Shown: piece by piece, positions 1 to 16,516 of the stretch | Numbering within the stretch: position 1 is the first letter of the stretch | Layout of the letters: every line of letters begins with the position of its first letter | DNA from: Escherichia phage vB_EcoM-12474III | DNA length: 33,807 nt | Sequence record: NC_049457.1 | Reading direction: 5' to 3' (one strand) | Program-made: the position numbers and the translations under genes | Notes under the pieces: generated by a model | What the model was told of the DNA's origin: nothing | Database searches by the model: none | Seen by the model: the letters and a program-made list of their open reading frames with translations, nothing else

Positions 1-127
1 GGGGAAATACTTGTCCGCCAGTAGCTGACGCCCCACAATCACCACAAGGTCAGGGTCTTCCTGATACCACGGCTCAATCAGGTTGTTGGTCGCATCCATC
101 ACCAGTGCGTCAAGGCTGGCATAATCA
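1..127. repeat. Terminal redundancy: 1-127 is identical to 33681-33807 (circular-permutation overlap)
   Basis: Read directly: both copies begin ggggaaatacttgtccgccagtagctgacg and end caaggctggcataatca; the capsid ORF reads seamlessly across the junction. Confidence 0.95.
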
Positions 128-741
128 CCGCCCTTACCCACGCGGATGACCTCAGATGTGGTGTGCCCTTCCTCGTCAGTGACCTTGCTCATCACGCGCG
201 CCGGTGCTTCATTGCGGTATTTCTGCAGCCAGCCGACCGCCACATCCTGCAGCATCGGATTACTGCTGCGGTCAGAGGTTTCGGCACGCTTCACGCCGTT
301 AAAACCGGCCATGATGAAATCAAGGGACTGGCGTTTGATAATGGCGTTACGGATACGGAGCTGGAAATCCTGATAACGCGCCCACAGGTCCAGCGTTTTG
401 TAGCGGATATAAAAATCGAAGTTAATCTGGTCGCATTCGTACTTGTTTGACGCCAGCTTCGAGAAGTCCTTCGGCTGACGCTCGGTGCCACCGGCGGTGT
501 CGGTGGTGCTGGCGATGGAGCCGGTGACACCAATACCAATTTTTTCCCCTTTCATTTCGCTGACCGGCACAATGTTGATGCGGGTCAGAAAATCAGAGGA
601 CTCCTGCATGGTGTTCATCAGGGTCTGAGTGACCGACGGTTCAACGGTGAATTTTTTCGACACATCACCGGCGTCGATGCCGTTCAGTTCGGCAACACGG
701 GACAGGTAGGCATTAAATTTAAAGCGGGTTTCCTGGCGCAT
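1..741 (-). CDS. N: Major capsid protein gpN, N-terminal part (ATG at 741..739; ORF runs off the window start and continues at the window end)
   Basis: Manual translation from 741 downward gives MRQETRFKFNAYLSRVAELNGIDAGDVSKKF..., matching my recollection of P2 gpN; the combined length with the 3' part is 357 aa. Confidence 0.9.
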   Translation of the reverse strand, partial: MRQETRFKFNAYLSRVAELNGIDAGDVSKKFTVEPSVTQTLMNTMQESSDFLTRINIVPVSEMKGEKIGIGVTGSIASTTDTAGGTERQPKDFSKLASNKYECDQINFDFYIRYKTLDLWARYQDFQLRIRNAIIKRQSLDFIMAGFNGVKRAETSDRSSNPMLQDVAVGWLQKYRNEAPARVMSKVTDEEGHTTSEVIRVGKGGDYASLDALVMDATNNLIEPWYQEDPDLVVIVGRQLLADKYFP

Positions 742-799: not shown

Positions 800-1654
800 T
801 CAGCAGTTCGTCATCAGGGCGTCACCGCCACCACCGGTGGCCTTGCTGCGGCGCTGCTGGGTCAGACTTTCGGTGTTGTCGAGACTGTTTTTCAGGCGGG
901 TGAATGCCTGGCTGGTTTCATCCGCCCTGTCAGTCACCTCCTGCTTAAGTGCGGAAAAGGCGGTTTCCATCTCAGCGAGGCGCTGCTCAGTGGCGCTCAG
1001 TTTTTCCTGCACATGTTCAGCAACAGCGGTCACCGCTTCATGCACGTCATTCAGACGGGCGTCATCGCTGGCCTGTTTGCGGCCAAAAATGGATTTCACC
1101 TTTTCGGTCAGGGCGGTGAACACGGTTTCAGGCAGGTCTTCAAATTCCAGCTCAACGGGCGTTGCCACTGAAATAAGGTTCTCAGGGCTTAATTTGAAGC
1201 GGTTCAGGGGGTTGTGTTTTGCCGTGCGGCAGAATTCCAGGTATTCCGTACCGAGGCTTGCCGGGTCATCGGTGACGGCCAGCCCCACCAGATAACATTT
1301 GCCGGTGTTGGCAAAGTTCGGCTGAATTTCCATTGAGGTATAGACCTTCTGCGCGGCCTTGTTCATCGCGATAAGGTCATCGGTCGGGGTGATTTTCGCA
1401 AACAGCGCCCATTTGCCTTTCAGCGCCGAATCATCGTCAATCTTTTCGGCCTTCAGTTCGGCCACATCGCCATAACGCTTAAAAATACCGTCAGGCAGGA
1501 TGCCGCGCAGATGTTCCAGGTTAATGCGGCAACCATAGACTCGCGGGTCAAAGGTTTCGGCCATTTCCTGAATATCCTGCGCACTGATGACACGCCCGTC
1601 ACAGGTGTCACCTTCAACGCCGATACGAAAGAATTTTGAGACTTTTTTTGCCAT
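800..1654 (-). CDS. O: Capsid scaffolding protein gpO
   Basis: ORF-track protein from MAKKVSKFFRIGVEGDTCDGRVI... is 284 aa from the ATG at 1654, the same length and start as P2 gpO as I recall it. Confidence 0.9.
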   Translation of the reverse strand: MAKKVSKFFRIGVEGDTCDGRVISAQDIQEMAETFDPRVYGCRINLEHLRGILPDGIFKRYGDVAELKAEKIDDDSALKGKWALFAKITPTDDLIAMNKAAQKVYTSMEIQPNFANTGKCYLVGLAVTDDPASLGTEYLEFCRTAKHNPLNRFKLSPENLISVATPVELEFEDLPETVFTALTEKVKSIFGRKQASDDARLNDVHEAVTAVAEHVQEKLSATEQRLAEMETAFSALKQEVTDRADETSQAFTRLKNSLDNTESLTQQRRSKATGGGGDALMTNC

Positions 1655-13285: not shown

Positions 13286-13437
13286 TGATTAGCCCTTTTT
13301 GCTTTCGTGTTACCCTTATTAGATCCAGTCCCTTCTAGGTCGCCCCTGTCCTTTCTAGGGACTGGCTAACACACTCAAAAGGTCACCAATACACAACCTT
13401 TTGACGGGAATATAAGTCACCAATAGGTTACTGTCAA
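13286..13437. promoter_or_regulatory. Divergent early promoter/operator region (Pe/Pc equivalent) between cox and C
   Basis: Intergenic region between divergent cox and C; contains direct repeats cccttctagg / cctttctagg and inverted arms ccagtccct ... agggactgg at 13325..13365. Confidence 0.6.
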
Positions 13438-13731: not shown

Positions 13732-13800
13732 CACTCTATAAACATTACATTTTCACTATTTGTTACCAAGATGGTGAATACAGCGTCAGAGGGCTTTCTT

Positions 13801-14781
13801 ATGTCAATTAAGAAGCTCGATGATGGACGCTATGAAGTGGACATTAGACCTCGCGGTCGCGACGGAAAACGCATCCGCAGGAAATTTGAAAGAAAAGCTG
13901 AGGCTGTAGCATTTGAGCGATACACAATCGCCTACGCCAGCCAGAAAGAATGGGCAGGTCAGCGAGCAGATCGCAGAACTTTGAGTGAGTTGCTGGACAT
14001 CTGGTGGAAATATCACGGGCAAAACCACGAGCATGGAACAAAAGAGTTTAATCATCTGCTCAAAACCATCAGCGGCATAGGTGATATACCAGTGAGCCGG
14101 ATGAGCAAAAGAGCTTTGATGGATTATCGTTCCATGCGACTACGTGATGGTATCAGTGCCGCAACGATAAACCGTGACATGTACCGATTATCCGGCATGT
14201 TCACAAAATTAATTCAATTGGATGAATTTTCCGGGCAACACCCAATTCACGGACTGCCGCCACTGGCGGAGGCCAACCCTGAAATGACGTTCCTGGAAAA
14301 AGCAGAAATCGAAAAACTGTTAAATGTTTTGGATGGTGATGACTTACTTGTCGCACTTTTATGTCTGAGCACTGGAGGAAGATGGACGGAAGTTGCCACG
14401 CTAAAACCAGCACAGATTACAAATTGCAGGGTTACCTTCCTGAAAACCAAAAACGGTAAAAAGCGAACCGTGCCGATTTCTGAGGAACTGGAGAAAAAAG
14501 TTAAAGAGGAGGCCAGCGCTAAATTATTCAAAGTTGATTATGAGAAGTTTTGCGGGATTTTACGCAGAGTGAAGCCAGATATACCACCCAATCAGGCAAC
14601 CCACATCCTGCGGCATACATTCGCAAGCCATTTCATGATGAATGGGGGCAATATAATCGCACTGCAACAGATTCTGGGACATGCGAGCATTCAGCAGACG
14701 ATGGCCTATGCGCACCTTGCGCCTGACTACCTGCAAAATGCCGTCGCACTGAATCCTCTAAAAGGCGGAGTGACGTTATAA
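13801..14781 (+). CDS. int: Tyrosine integrase
   Basis: MSIKKLDDGRYEVDIRP... (P2 Int-like N-terminus); C-terminal HILRHTFASHFMMNGG ... LGH ... MAYAHL tyrosine-recombinase motifs. Confidence 0.9.
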   Translation: MSIKKLDDGRYEVDIRPRGRDGKRIRRKFERKAEAVAFERYTIAYASQKEWAGQRADRRTLSELLDIWWKYHGQNHEHGTKEFNHLLKTISGIGDIPVSRMSKRALMDYRSMRLRDGISAATINRDMYRLSGMFTKLIQLDEFSGQHPIHGLPPLAEANPEMTFLEKAEIEKLLNVLDGDDLLVALLCLSTGGRWTEVATLKPAQITNCRVTFLKTKNGKKRTVPISEELEKKVKEEASAKLFKVDYEKFCGILRRVKPDIPPNQATHILRHTFASHFMMNGGNIIALQQILGHASIQQTMAYAHLAPDYLQNAVALNPLKGGVTL

Positions 14782-14795
14782 ATTTCCCTTCTGAG

Positions 14796-15050
14796 TGTCC
14801 ACATAGTGTCCACACTCTCAGAACTTTGTAGCCCTTCCAGTCCCTTATAGGTTTTCTTAAGTTACTGTTTTCTTACGGAAACCGATGTAAGTGATTGATA
14901 AAAAAAACCCCCACATCATGTGGGGGAAGACAGGGATGGTGTCACAAAAAAGCACCTAACCTGATGATATAAATGGATTTATGTCAACCACTGTCCACAT
15001 AGCGTCCACATCGACCATAAATAAGCCCCTCGACTGAGGGGCTATTTTTG
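14796..15050. other. attP: attP region: Int arm-type sites flanking a probable core
   Basis: TGTCCACATAGTGTCCACA (14796..14814) and TGTCCACATAGCGTCCACA (14992..15010) are tandem copies of the reverse complement of TGTGGACA, which I recall as the P2 Int arm-site motif; the probable core is the A-run plus hairpin at about 14898..14930. Confidence 0.55.
14900..14926 (-). terminator. Rho-independent terminator downstream of ogr (likely overlapping the attP core)
   Basis: Minus strand reads stem cccccacatgatgtggggg followed by eight T. Confidence 0.7.
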
Positions 15051-15053
15051 TGA

Positions 15054-15272
15054 TCACATCCACATAATTTGCTGCCCTGACGGCAACGGGTGCGGCCTCA
15101 CGGCGTGGACTTCTCCCGGCTTCACGATGTATCTCTGTACCGACTCATAAGTGATGAACGTGGCGCTGCAATTCACGTTCTGGCACTGGTGATAACGCTC
15201 TTTTGTCGTGTCAGTGATATAGCGGCTTGTACGCGCATGTGCGGCATGCTGGCATAAAGGACAATGAAACAT
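15054..15272 (-). CDS. ogr: Late-gene transcriptional activator Ogr (zinc finger)
   Basis: MFHCPLCQHAAHARTSRYITDTTKERYHQCQNVNCSATF... has the C-X2-C-X22-C-X4-C pattern and matches P2 Ogr (72 aa); RBS GGAAGAGG upstream of the ATG at 15272. Confidence 0.88.
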   Translation of the reverse strand: MFHCPLCQHAAHARTSRYITDTTKERYHQCQNVNCSATFITYESVQRYIVKPGEVHAVRPHPLPSGQQIMWM

Positions 15273-15352
15273 CGCGAGCACCTCTTCCGGTTTTGTTAAT
15301 GGTGCCATTTTATTTAATTTATCCTTATAAAACAAACAGATAAAACTAAACA

Positions 15353-16516
15353 TTAATCATCATCTTCTGTTTCGTACTCCACATCAGAAAGCCTGACCTC
15401 AAGCTCTAAGGACGTCGTGAAGCCGCTATTATTCAGAAAATGTGTCACCTTAGTGATTGTCCAGTCCTGCTCGTCTATGACGCGCTTAAAGCCTGACACT
15501 CTGACCGGTGTTTCCGTGTAAATATCAGCACGACCAGTGGCCAGGCTGATGGAGAACTCCGCAACGCCCCGTTGCAGTTTATCCCACTTCGCCTGAGCGG
15601 CACGCATGGCCTGCGCTTTTGTGGCATATACCGTAGTCAGGGCAAAAACGTTGTCAGCTTCACCTGCCATGTATTCACCTTCGCGCGCTTCCGGTGCTTT
15701 TGGCGCTTTCTTCTGCGTGACCGGTTTCGCTTTCGGGTGCTCCAGTGCGCGCAGGTGTTTCTCTTTCTTTTTGCGTTTCAGTTTTACCTTCTGCTTTTGC
15801 GGCTTCGGGTCTTTGGTGTGTAACCACTTTGCCGTTACGCCGGTGTAAGCTCCACGGTCAGCAATCGCAAAATGATGACGGTCGCCGTCGCTGCGGGTGA
15901 TGGTAATCTGCGGGATTTTTTTACCGCTGGCCGTCACCCCCTGCCCCACTTTGAGAAACAGCAGTTTTCCCATTTTTACCGACACCTCACCGCCGTTGCG
16001 TTCAGCAAGGCGGGTCAGGAATTTTGCATCAGACTCCTGTGACTGGTCGATGTGCGGGATTTTAATTCCGGCCAGTGACGGAGCGACACTGGCTTCCAGC
16101 CTGTTACGGGAGGCTATCGCCTCAACAATCGCACCGAGCGTGGTGTCATGCCAGGAGCCTTCACGGCGGGAATTGAGCGTCCCGCGAAAATCTGCACTCC
16201 TGGCGCGGATGGTGACCACATCCGGCGCGCCCCGGTGTTCAACCTCATCAACGGTAAATTTCCCTTTGCATACCAGGGCAAAACCTTTCCAGCCGATATA
16301 CACCGTCAGGACAGCGCCACGAACCGGCAGCCCGACCTGCCCGTCGGCATCGTTCAGTTCAATATCAAGCTGGTCAGCCTCAAAGCCCCGGTTATCCGTC
16401 AGGGTCATGCTCATCAGACGGTCGCTGATATTGCCGGTAATATCCCTGCTGTCGAGCATCAGCATGTAATCCGGCGTCAGCGTACTGCCTGCATCAAATG
16501 TCAGCGCATCCAGCAT
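15353..16516 (-). CDS. D: Tail protein gpD
   Basis: 387-aa ORF, the same length and position as P2 gpD. Confidence 0.85.
   Translation of the reverse strand: MLDALTFDAGSTLTPDYMLMLDSRDITGNISDRLMSMTLTDNRGFEADQLDIELNDADGQVGLPVRGAVLTVYIGWKGFALVCKGKFTVDEVEHRGAPDVVTIRARSADFRGTLNSRREGSWHDTTLGAIVEAIASRNRLEASVAPSLAGIKIPHIDQSQESDAKFLTRLAERNGGEVSVKMGKLLFLKVGQGVTASGKKIPQITITRSDGDRHHFAIADRGAYTGVTAKWLHTKDPKPQKQKVKLKRKKKEKHLRALEHPKAKPVTQKKAPKAPEAREGEYMAGEADNVFALTTVYATKAQAMRAAQAKWDKLQRGVAEFSISLATGRADIYTETPVRVSGFKRVIDEQDWTITKVTHFLNNSGFTTSLELEVRLSDVEYETEDDD

What the first reader, a model, noticed from the sequence alone, without database searches (positions are those of the whole stretch)
14796..15050. attP architecture: tandem TGTCCACA arm repeats flanking a hairpin that probably doubles as the ogr terminator
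Two 19-bp elements, each a tandem direct repeat of the reverse complement of the P2 Int arm-site motif as I recall it, bracket about 180 bp containing an A8 run plus GC hairpin (14900..14926). A second hairpin with a T-tract lies at 15024..15050. The likely core therefore resembles a host terminator, a common target type for tyrosine integrases.
Basis: partly seen in the sequence, partly recalled or inferred. Interest (0 to 1): 0.35.

Follow-up and report, generated by a model that had tools for sequence, protein, structure and literature searches.

The report
Known WPhi-type phage attachment site
This is the already-described attachment site (attP) of a WPhi-type P2-like coliphage; it integrates into the terminator of the host cpxP gene, which is also the 3' end of the CpxQ small RNA, so the finding is correct but ordinary.

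Summary
Two 19-bp tandem TGTCCACA units (14796..14814, 14992..15010) bracket an A8+hairpin (14900..14926), and a second hairpin sits at 15024..15043.

The region is 98.9-100% identical to phage WPhi and its relatives, and has the element order annotated for P2: int, P' arm, Cox region, core, IHF, P arm, terminator, ogr.

The core is a 47-bp block (14897..14943) identical to the E. coli chromosome between cpxP and fieF. About 786 of 5426 complete E. coli genomes carry a prophage there, and both junctions end exactly at this block. On the minus strand the block is the cpxP intrinsic terminator, which is nt 15-58 of the CpxQ sRNA.

A host/phage polymorphism at 14908 places strand exchange to its right (14909..14943), so the phage supplies the end of the CpxQ terminator in lysogens.

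The homologue of P2's annotated ogr terminator is the proximal hairpin (15024..15043), not the core hairpin, which can at most be a back-up.

WPhi's site at cpxP-fieF and the tgTGGaCa arm consensus are published. Small additions here: the CpxQ identity, a conserved perfect IHF consensus abutting the core, and the narrowed crossover interval.

The parts
13801..14781 (+). int, a WPhi-type tyrosine integrase (326 aa). The ORF finder extends the frame back to 13771.
   Evidence: WPhi record annotates 981 nt. Pfam Int_N plus Phage_integrase. 52% identical to P2 Int overall: N-terminal 45 aa 78%, central core-binding part 37%, catalytic part 55%.
14796..14814 (+). P' arm: two direct arm-type Int sites, TGTCCACA-tag-TGTCCACA.
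   Evidence: Aligns with the P2 'Int P' arm' feature. Sits at the same offset (-104/-93 from the A-tract) in WPhi, FSL SP-004, SEN4, phiT5282H and a diverged E. coli prophage.
14830..14885 (+). Probable Cox (directionality factor) binding region. It holds AGTCCCTTATAGG at 14839..14851 and GTTTTCTTA twice, at 14851..14859 and 14867..14875.
   Evidence: Occupies the position of the P2 Cox footprint, between the P' arm and the core. The 13-mer recurs only at the Pe-Pc switch region, at 13327 and 13347. Direct repeats shown. Binding itself is inferred.
14888..14900 (-). Perfect IHF consensus TATCAATCACTTA, abutting and overlapping the left end of the core, with the U8/T8 tract as its A/T-rich flank.
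   Evidence: It is the only perfect WATCAANNNNTTR match in the 33.8-kb window. It sits at offset -12 in five diverged attP or junction sequences; the consensus positions are kept while the N4 positions vary. Binding is inferred.
14897..14943 (.). attP core: a 47-bp block identical to E. coli attB between cpxP and fieF. Strand exchange falls within 14909..14943.
   Evidence: attP, attB and both junctions aligned. Crossover lies right of 14908 from the A9C4/A8C5 polymorphism.
14900..14926 (-). Intrinsic terminator of host cpxP, which is the 3' end of the CpxQ sRNA: stem-loop 14926..14908 followed by U8 at 14907..14900. In the phage it is a possible back-up terminator for ogr read-through.
   Evidence: CpxQ is described as spanning the cpxP 3' UTR in PMC9438474.
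14929..14943 (.). Dyad GACA-GGGATGG-TGTC at the cpxP-proximal end of the block, a candidate Int core site with a 7-bp overlap region (hypothesis).
   Evidence: Read from the sequence. At least 7 unrelated phage P-arm families all diverge from the host immediately after GGTG at 14941. This is inference only.
14957..14969 (-). IHF-like site TATCATCAGGTTA (1 mismatch), the positional homologue of the annotated P2 IHF site.
14992..15010 (+). P arm: two direct arm-type Int sites, TGTCCACA-tag-CGTCCACA.
   Evidence: Aligns with the P2 'Int P arm' feature. Offset +92/+103 is also found in FSL SP-004.
15024..15050 (.). Two-way terminator hairpin. It is the homologue of the P2 'terminator for ogr transcript and F operon' on the - strand, and the likely int/C terminator on the + strand (tail AUUUUUG).
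15054..15272 (-). ogr, the late-gene activator (72 aa).
   Evidence: Pfam Ogr_Delta.

Best explanation
The interval 14796..15050 is the attP of a WPhi-type P2-like phage.

Layout. The Int N-terminal domain binds two pairs of direct TGTCCACA repeats, the P' arm next to int and the P arm next to ogr. These lie about 100 bp on either side of a core that is identical to the host attB. IHF sites on both sides of the core, and Cox boxes between the core and the P' arm, bend the DNA so that arm-bound Int can reach the core. This is the heterobivalent, lambda/P2-type intasome.

Core. The core is the intrinsic terminator of the host cpxP gene, that is nt 15-58 of the 3'-UTR-derived sRNA CpxQ.

Strand exchange. 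It takes place between 14909 and 14943, most likely near the cpxP-proximal end. After integration the host supplies the 5' part of CpxQ and the phage supplies the rest, including the end of the terminator stem and the U-tract, so cpxP/CpxQ stays intact. The second core copy sits between ogr and fieF.

Transcription. The ogr/late transcript is terminated mainly at the proximal hairpin 15024..15043, which also ends int transcripts coming from the other side. The core hairpin+U8 is a second terminator in series.

Shown here: the repeats, the homology, the attB locus, both junctions and the polarity of exchange at 14908. Inferred: protein binding to each site, the exact cut sites and terminator usage.
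For: - Identity with phage WPhi (98.9%) and relatives (100%) across C-int-attP-ogr.
- The P2 record annotates terminator, Int P arm, IHF, core, Cox and Int P' arm in the same order. The arm, IHF and terminator blocks align with the window.
- The 47-bp block 14897..14943 matches E. coli chromosomes exactly, 24 nt downstream of the cpxP stop and 78 nt upstream of the fieF start.
- Junctions: fieF-core-P arm-ogr (L004) and int-P' arm-core-cpxP (L006). About 786 of 5426 genomes are lysogens at this site.
- CpxQ: the sequence downstream of the cpxP stop is invariant across about 77 enterobacterial species loci, apart from compensatory stem changes. CpxQ is about 60 nt and spans the cpxP 3' UTR (PMC9438474).
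- Crossover polarity, host-variant case: lysogens whose hosts belong to the A9C4 clade carry A9C4 in the fieF-side copy and A8C5 in the cpxP-side copy.
- Crossover polarity, phage-variant case: one phage lineage sitting in two A8C5-type hosts shows the reverse pattern.
- Arm/IHF/core spacing is conserved in diverged phages, although the intervening sequence differs.
- The Int N-terminus is 78% identical to P2 Int, against 37% for the core-binding part. This fits the same arm motif with a different core (PMC3448106).
- Published: the tgTGGaCa arm consensus and the statement that the WPhi integration site was already identified (PMC3448106); prophage Wphi1 at cpxP-fieF in E. coli W (PMC3032704, Table 2).
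Against: - No protein-binding or transcript data exist for this window. The Int, IHF and Cox contacts are assigned by homology and consensus only.
- The primary WPhi att paper could not be read here, so I do not know which of these sites were footprinted.
- The polymorphism test rests on 3+2 lysogens, and on the assumption that the C-to-A change at 14908 did not arise independently in those copies.
- The exact cut sites remain unmapped within a 35-bp interval.
Confidence: 0.93

Rival explanations
1. One reading: the core hairpin (14908..14926 plus the A8/U8 tract) is itself the working ogr terminator, so a single element serves as both recombination core and terminator.
For: On the ogr (-) strand the core hairpin is followed by a perfect U8 and folds at -14.4 kcal/mol. 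The proximal hairpin's tail here is the interrupted UUAUUUAUGG, weaker than P2's UUUUUUGU. In a lysogen, this core copy is what separates ogr from fieF.
Against: The proximal hairpin begins 11 nt after the ogr stop codon and is more stable (-18 kcal/mol). It is the direct homologue of the feature annotated as the ogr/F-operon terminator in P2. A hairpin is kept at that position in every relative, even where cargo genes are inserted. P2's own core lies further from ogr than its terminator does.
Confidence: 0.2
2. Strand exchange is centred on the 19-bp perfect palindrome (overlap about 14914..14920, in the hairpin loop), with Int core sites on the two stem halves, rather than near the cpxP-proximal end of the block.
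For: The palindrome is the most obvious dyad in the core, and tyrosine recombinase cores are usually inverted half-sites. The interval 14909..14943 allowed by the polymorphism test includes it.
Against: All phage families that use this site keep identity with the host through GGTG (14941), and at least 7 unrelated P-arm families diverge immediately after it. A loop-centred exchange would not need that identity. None of the 101 core copies in IMG/VR has a hybrid A/T-type stem, although both stem types occur in phages and hosts. By alignment with P2, the homologous IHF site abuts the right end of the block rather than the hairpin.
Confidence: 0.3
3. The repeats and hairpins are not an att site. 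On this view the TGTCCACA units are operators for another regulator, or chance repeats in an intergenic spacer between convergent genes.
For: None beyond the fact that no binding data exist for this exact sequence.
Against: The 19-mer statistics, homology to footprint-annotated P2 sites, and hundreds of lysogens whose junctions fall exactly at the core.
Confidence: 0.01

Closest known systems
Bacteriophage WPhi attP/attB (Peduovirus Wphi; AY135739, AJ245959)
   Same: 98.9% nucleotide identity over C-int-attP-ogr, with the same arm repeats and an identical 47-bp core. The host site is the same: cpxP-fieF (PMC3032704, Table 2). Phages vB_EcoM-12474II/IV/V are 100% identical over this region.
   Different: A few point differences outside the functional blocks. 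Nothing architectural differs.
Bacteriophage P2 attP (AF063097 annotation)
   Same: Same order and orientation of ogr terminator, P arm, IHF, core, Cox and P' arm, with int alongside. The arm motif is the same (TGTCCACA / CGTCCACA / TGACCACA). The IHF block and the terminator hairpin are homologous.
   Different: The core is different: P2 has a 27-28 bp core. P2-type prophages sit at the cyaR sRNA locus (PMC3032704, Table 2), whereas this one uses the cpxP/CpxQ terminator. The Cox-box sequence differs. The arms are 177 bp apart here against 154 bp in P2. There is an extra perfect IHF consensus on the P' side that the P2 record does not annotate. The Int core-binding region is only 37% identical.
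Integration of phages and islands into the 3' ends of tRNA, tmRNA and sRNA genes (e.g. 186 in tRNA-Ile, Fels-2 in ssrA, P2-like prophages at rybB and cyaR)
   Same: The phage carries a copy of the 3' part of a small structured RNA gene, terminator included, so integration rebuilds the gene (PMC3448106; PMC3032704 Table 2).
   Different: The target here is a 3'-UTR-derived sRNA that shares its terminator with a protein-coding mRNA (cpxP), not a free-standing RNA gene. I found no paper that states the CpxQ identity of the WPhi core.
Lambda attP (heterobivalent Int with arm sites, IHF and Xis)
   Same: The same logic applies: arm-type and core-type Int sites, IHF bends, and a directionality factor binding on one arm.
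   Different: Unrelated sequences and a simpler arm layout (two tandem sites per arm). Cox also acts as the lysis-lysogeny switch repressor (PMC3936717).

Membership tests
P2/WPhi-type attP (heterobivalent tyrosine-integrase attachment site) | Adjacent tyrosine integrase of the P2 family with an arm-binding N-terminus | tested here: met
   Pfam Int_N plus Phage_integrase. 52% identical to P2 Int, with the N-terminal 45 aa at 78%.
P2/WPhi-type attP (heterobivalent tyrosine-integrase attachment site) | At least two direct arm-type repeats matching tgTGGaCa on each side of the core | tested here: met
   14796..14814 and 14992..15010. Consensus taken from PMC3448106. The repeats align with the annotated P2 arm sites.
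P2/WPhi-type attP (heterobivalent tyrosine-integrase attachment site) | Core sequence identical to a chromosomal attB | tested here: met
   47 of 47 bp identical to the cpxP-fieF intergenic region.
P2/WPhi-type attP (heterobivalent tyrosine-integrase attachment site) | Prophages flanked by attL and attR that share the core as a direct repeat | tested here: met
   Both junctions were read in lysogens. About 786 lysogens among 5426 genomes.
P2/WPhi-type attP (heterobivalent tyrosine-integrase attachment site) | IHF site between the core and an arm | tested here: inconclusive
   Consensus matches at 14888..14900 (perfect, conserved) and 14957..14969 (1 mismatch, homologous to the P2 IHF feature). 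No binding data.
P2/WPhi-type attP (heterobivalent tyrosine-integrase attachment site) | Cox (directionality factor) binding sites on the P' side, and a cox gene in the phage | tested here: inconclusive
   The cox gene is present (Pfam Phage_Cox). A 13-mer shared with the Pe-Pc region lies at 14839..14851. Binding could not be tested.
P2/WPhi-type attP (heterobivalent tyrosine-integrase attachment site) | Int-catalysed recombination at this site | not testable with these tools
   Needs in vivo or in vitro recombination. Indirect support comes from natural lysogens only.
Rho-independent terminator of ogr (as annotated in P2) | GC-rich hairpin plus U-tract immediately downstream of ogr on the ogr strand, homologous to P2 24265..24288 | tested here: met
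   Met by 15024..15043, although its U-tract is interrupted. The core hairpin at 14908..14926 is not the homologue of that feature.
CpxQ sRNA / cpxP terminator | Sequence identity with the 3' UTR of cpxP, including the terminator | tested here: met
   The core's - strand equals nt 15-58 of the 58-nt stretch that follows the cpxP stop region in E. coli. This stretch is conserved in about 77 enterobacterial loci. Only the 3' 44 nt are phage-borne; the 5' 14 nt are absent from attP.
CpxQ sRNA / cpxP terminator | Match to an Rfam CpxQ model | tested here: not met
   No family of that name gave a hit. The only hit is a sub-threshold match to Hrs1 (RF02628) on the opposite strand (31.8 bits against a 56.4 cut-off).

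The most novel reading that the evidence does not exclude
The phage-borne copy of the CpxQ 3' module (44 of 58 nt, including the internal conserved stretch and the Hfq-type terminator) may not be merely a passive recombination target. On this reading, read-through of ogr/late transcripts past the weakened proximal terminator ends at the core U8. That would produce a phage-encoded chimeric RNA with a CpxQ 3' end, which could mimic or titrate CpxQ/Hfq during lytic growth and so link P2-like phage development to the Cpx envelope-stress response. Alongside this, the conserved IHF site built on the terminator's T-tract would be a feature specific to phages that target cpxP.
Probability: 0.06. Interest if true: 0.55.

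Novelty: already known. Interest (0 to 1): 0.15.

Why it matters
For annotating this window, it fixes the attP, its parts and the host target, and it corrects the terminator assignment.

More broadly it is a textbook case, with little new. It does illustrate that P2-like phages favour sRNA terminators (cyaR, rybB, ssrA and here CpxQ), and that about one in seven complete E. coli genomes carries a prophage at this single site.

The natural A9C4/A8C5 polymorphism gives a cheap genomic way to read the polarity of strand exchange without experiments. The same approach could be applied to other att sites.

Tried and rejected
- Rfam on the empty attB locus and on the window gave no CpxQ family. The only hit was a sub-threshold Hrs1 match on the wrong strand. 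Rfam on the P2 core gave nothing, so its cyaR identity could not be confirmed by tool.
- The primary WPhi papers were not held: Virology 2009 (by doi), PMC113030 and PMC1482927. The supplement of PMC3448106, with the arm-site figure, was not held either.
- A fuzzy-regex scan of the host loci timed out and was replaced by a simple regex.
- The cpxP-side host flank was too conserved to assign lineages: 3-7 differences per 1400 nt. The fieF-side flank was used instead.
- One fetch missed the junction because that prophage carries extra cargo. It was repeated.
- I tried to place the crossover relative to the hairpin loop by looking for hybrid A/T stems in IMG/VR. There were 0 of 101, which is suggestive but not decisive, because phages may simply match their hosts.
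- I considered and rejected the idea that the terminator-scan counts alone support the hairpins (3 found against 1.7 expected).

Full report
**1. Observation**

- TGTCCACAtagTGTCCACA lies at 14796..14814.
- TGTCCACAtagCGTCCACA lies at 14992..15010, with 177 bp between the two units.
- A8 lies at 14900..14907, followed by the perfect palindrome CCCCCACAT-C-ATGTGGGGG at 14908..14926.
- A second hairpin, AGCCCCTCgactGAGGGGCT, lies at 15024..15043, followed by ATTTTTG.

The repeats are far beyond chance. The 8-mer occurs 4 times in the window against 0.98 expected, three of them here. The 19-mer occurs twice against 0.01 expected, and 0 of 100 shuffles reach 2. Both hairpins are stable as RNA: -14.4 kcal/mol for the core hairpin and -18 to -20 kcal/mol for the proximal one.

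**2. Context**

The interval lies between two convergent genes.
- int (13801..14781, + strand) has Pfam Int_N plus Phage_integrase.
- ogr (15054..15272, - strand) has Pfam Ogr_Delta.
- The C repressor and cox lie upstream of int, and gene D lies beyond ogr.

The 2-kb stretch C-int-att-ogr is 100% identical to phages vB_EcoM-12474II/IV/V and 98.9% identical to phage WPhi (AY135739, AJ245959).

**3. Anatomy by homology with P2**

The P2 GenBank record annotates these features in this order: ogr, 'rho-independent terminator for ogr transcript and F operon', Int P arm, IHF, Int attP core, Cox, Int P' arm, int.

In a three-way alignment of window, WPhi and P2, four blocks are conserved:
- the P' arm block (GAGTGTCCACAyAGTGTCCACA);
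- the IHF block (…ATAAAwGGATTTAT…);
- the P arm block (CGTCCACA…CCACATCGAC);
- the terminator hairpin (AAGCCCCTCGACTGAGGGGCT).

The core and the Cox region are unrelated between P2 and the window.

The protein comparison says the same. Against P2 Int, the window's Int is 78% identical in the N-terminal 45 residues, which form the arm-binding part. It is 37% identical in the central core-binding part and 55% identical in the catalytic part. Nilsson et al. 2011 (PMC3448106) give tgTGGaCa as the arm consensus of P2-type phages. They also note that the core-binding domain is the variable part. TGTCCACA is the reverse complement of that consensus.

**4. Core and host target**

A 551-nt query across the site was searched against 5426 complete E. 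coli genomes. Three kinds of match appeared.
- Thousands of genomes match only query positions 248..294, which is window 14897..14943. That is 47 bp at 100% identity.
- Lysogens match 248..551, the core plus the ogr side.
- Other lysogen pieces match 1..294, the int side plus the core.

A second query confirmed that int-side homology stops exactly at 14943 in 786 genomes.

The empty site lies 24 nt downstream of the cpxP stop codon and 78 nt upstream of the fieF start. The two junctions were read directly: fieF-core-P arm-ogr and int-P' arm-core-cpxP. All four att sequences are aligned.

It was therefore tested and not met. The cpxP-fieF location of prophage Wphi1 in E. coli W is published (PMC3032704, Table 2). 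P2-like prophages at yiiP(fieF)-cpxP are also listed for Salmonella (PMC6449608).

**5. What the core is in the host**

On the - strand the core reads GACACCATCCCTGTCTTCCCCCACATGATGTGGGGGTTTTTTTTATC. In E. coli the sequence after the cpxP stop is TTTTCCTTGCCATAGACACCATCCCTGTCTTCCCCCACATGATGTGGGGGTTTTTTTT. [quoted passage not shown]

The phage therefore carries CpxQ nt 15-58 plus 3 further bases. Across about 77 species loci of Enterobacteriaceae this stretch is invariant, apart from compensatory changes in the stem.

Many of those loci are themselves occupied by P2-like prophages. In them the sequence after T8 switches from the native GCC… (or ATCCTC… in Escherichia) to the phage-type ATCAnnnACTTA.

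I found no paper that states the WPhi core is the CpxQ 3' end. It does fit the known habit of P2-like phages of sitting at sRNA genes: cyaR, rybB and ssrA are listed in PMC3032704 Table 2 and PMC3448106.

**6. Where strand exchange occurs**

Some E. coli empty sites have a C-to-A change at the position equivalent to 14908, giving A9C4 instead of A8C5. I searched with synthetic junction queries carrying A9C4.
- Four lysogens carry it only in the fieF-side copy.
- Five carry it only in the cpxP-side copy.

Fetched examples, fieF-side group. The host flank (2400 nt of fieF-pfkA) is 20-21 differences from the A9C4 empty strains, against 54-66 from A8C5 strains. The other copy in DSM 103246 is A8C5.

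Fetched examples, cpxP-side group. The host flanks are 0-28 differences from A8C5 strains and 56-67 from the A9C4 clade. The two prophages examined belong to one lineage with the same restriction-modification cargo, yet sit in different hosts.

So position 14908 is host-derived at the fieF-side junction and phage-derived at the cpxP-side junction. The exchange therefore lies to its right, within 14909..14943. In lysogens the phage supplies at least the last stem base and the U-tract of the CpxQ terminator.

Further narrowing is inference.
- All phage families using this site keep identity up to GGTG (14941).
- At least seven unrelated P-arm families diverge immediately after GGTG.
- None of 101 core copies in IMG/VR has a hybrid A/T-type stem.
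- By alignment with P2, the homologous IHF site abuts the right end of the block.

The dyad GACA-GGGATGG-TGTC (14929..14943) is therefore my preferred candidate for core sites plus a 7-bp overlap, at roughly 55%. A palindrome-centred exchange gets about 30%.

**7. Accessory sites**

The only perfect IHF consensus (WATCAANNNNTTR) in the whole window is TATCAATCACTTA at 14888..14900 on the - strand. It overlaps the left edge of the core and uses the T8 tract as its A/T-rich flank.

That site sits at the same offset (-12 from the A-tract) in WPhi, FSL SP-004, SEN4, phiT5282H and a diverged E. coli prophage. The consensus positions are kept while the four N positions vary. The P2 record annotates no IHF site on that side.

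A second site with one mismatch (14957..14969) is the positional homologue of the P2 IHF feature.

Between the P' arm and the core, where P2 has its Cox footprint, lies AGTCCCTTATAGG (14839..14851). Its only other near-matches in the window are the two repeats in the Pe-Pc switch region, at 13327 and 13347. GTTTTCTTA is also repeated at 14851 and 14867. Binding to all of these sites is inferred.

The arm positions are fixed across these diverged phages, although the sequence between them differs: -104/-93 in all five sequences, and +92/+103 in the window and FSL SP-004. That is the signature of a constrained intasome geometry.

**8. Terminators**

The proximal hairpin (15043..15024 on the - strand) starts 11 nt after the ogr stop. 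It is the homologue of P2's annotated ogr/F-operon terminator. Its tail here is UUAUUUAUGG, against UUUUUUGU in P2.

On the + strand the same hairpin is followed by AUUUUUGUGA, so it is also the likely end of C-int transcripts, which must cross the whole attP first. Every relative keeps a hairpin at this position next to the P arm, even where cargo genes are inserted before ogr.

The core hairpin+U8 lies 128 nt further along the ogr strand. It is best seen as the host cpxP terminator that the phage must carry. It may also stop ogr read-through, and in the lysogen it insulates fieF.

One consequence is inferred and was not tested. In the prophage, int transcripts lose the 15024 terminator and instead run antisense into cpxP.

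**9. Verdict**

The element is the already-characterised WPhi-type attP. Novelty is 'already known' and interest is low. The minor additions are:
- the explicit CpxQ identity of the core;
- the conserved core-abutting IHF consensus;
- the polarity and 35-bp bound on strand exchange, derived from natural polymorphism;
- the prevalence of lysogens, about 14% of complete E. coli genomes.

Noticed in passing
window 14900..14966 (+ strand): There is a sub-threshold Rfam hit to Hrs1 (RF02628, an Erwinia Hfq-regulated sRNA), 31.8 bits against a 56.4 cut-off. The family consensus (A7-CCCC…GGGG-uAgaCaGgGaU…GGCAAGG…AcAGgG) reads like the reverse complement of CpxQ plus the end of cpxP. Rfam Hrs1 may therefore be the CpxQ locus modelled on the opposite strand.
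   Followed up: no
position equivalent to window 14908; loci L092, L093, L095-L099, L104-L106: A C-to-A polymorphism (A9C4 against A8C5) at the base of the cpxP terminator stem marks one E. coli host clade and, separately, one prophage lineage. Nine lysogens carry different alleles in their two core copies. The same allele is seen in Salmonella phage SEN4 and in some empty Citrobacter sites.
   Followed up: yes
L007 1686..2069, L008 1852..2955, L009 1745..2542, L010 1823..2230: In relatives that use the same core, the gap between the P-arm terminator and ogr is a cargo insertion spot. SEN4 and FSL SP-004 carry hypothetical proteins there, ESSI2_ev239 an O-acetyltransferase, and phiT5282H a CpdA-like phosphodiesterase. 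The window has no cargo at this position.
   Followed up: no
L008 (Escherichia phage ESSI2_ev239) about 1400..1640: This phage uses the same cpxP core but with a different arm layout. One side has a palindromic CGTCCACATGTGGACG and two arm repeats in the inverted orientation. It also has a GA insertion between the A8 tract and the hairpin, so its identity block with the host would be only about 35 bp.
   Followed up: partly
window 13286..13437 (cox-C intergenic switch region): A 10-bp direct repeat, GTCACCAATA, occurs at 13382 and 13416; these are probably C repressor operators. AGTCCCTTCTAGG / TGTCCTTTCTAGG occur at 13327 and 13347; these are probably Cox boxes, and one copy recurs in attP at 14839. 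A strong sigma-70-like promoter lies on the - strand at 13437..13409.
   Followed up: partly
window 14934..14950 and 15045..15061: A 17-nt inverted repeat, 82% complementary (GGATGGTGTCACAAAAA / TTTTTGTGATCACATCC), links the right edge of the core to the sequence just past the proximal terminator and the ogr stop. It is unexplained and may be chance.
   Followed up: no
NZ_CP135595.1 4418236..4420100 (hit H26): This is the only E. coli chromosome in which one place covers 98% of the attP query, in 3 pieces spread over about 1.9 kb, with int, ogr and D side by side. It may be a tandem or rearranged prophage that regenerates an attP-like junction with an insertion.
   Followed up: no
L013, L014, L039 (genome contigs): Two 'Enterobacter hormaechei' chromosomes carry a cpxP locus 100% identical to E. 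coli, including the E. coli-type flank. A 'Vagococcus sp.' contig carries an enterobacterial cpxP with a P2-like prophage junction. These are probably mislabelled or contaminated records.
   Followed up: no
window 15054..15353 (- strand): The mechanical ORF containing ogr is 99 aa, because the frame stays open upstream. The annotated 72-aa Ogr starts at 15272. Similarly, the int ORF opens at 13771 but the WPhi annotation starts at 13801.
   Followed up: yes
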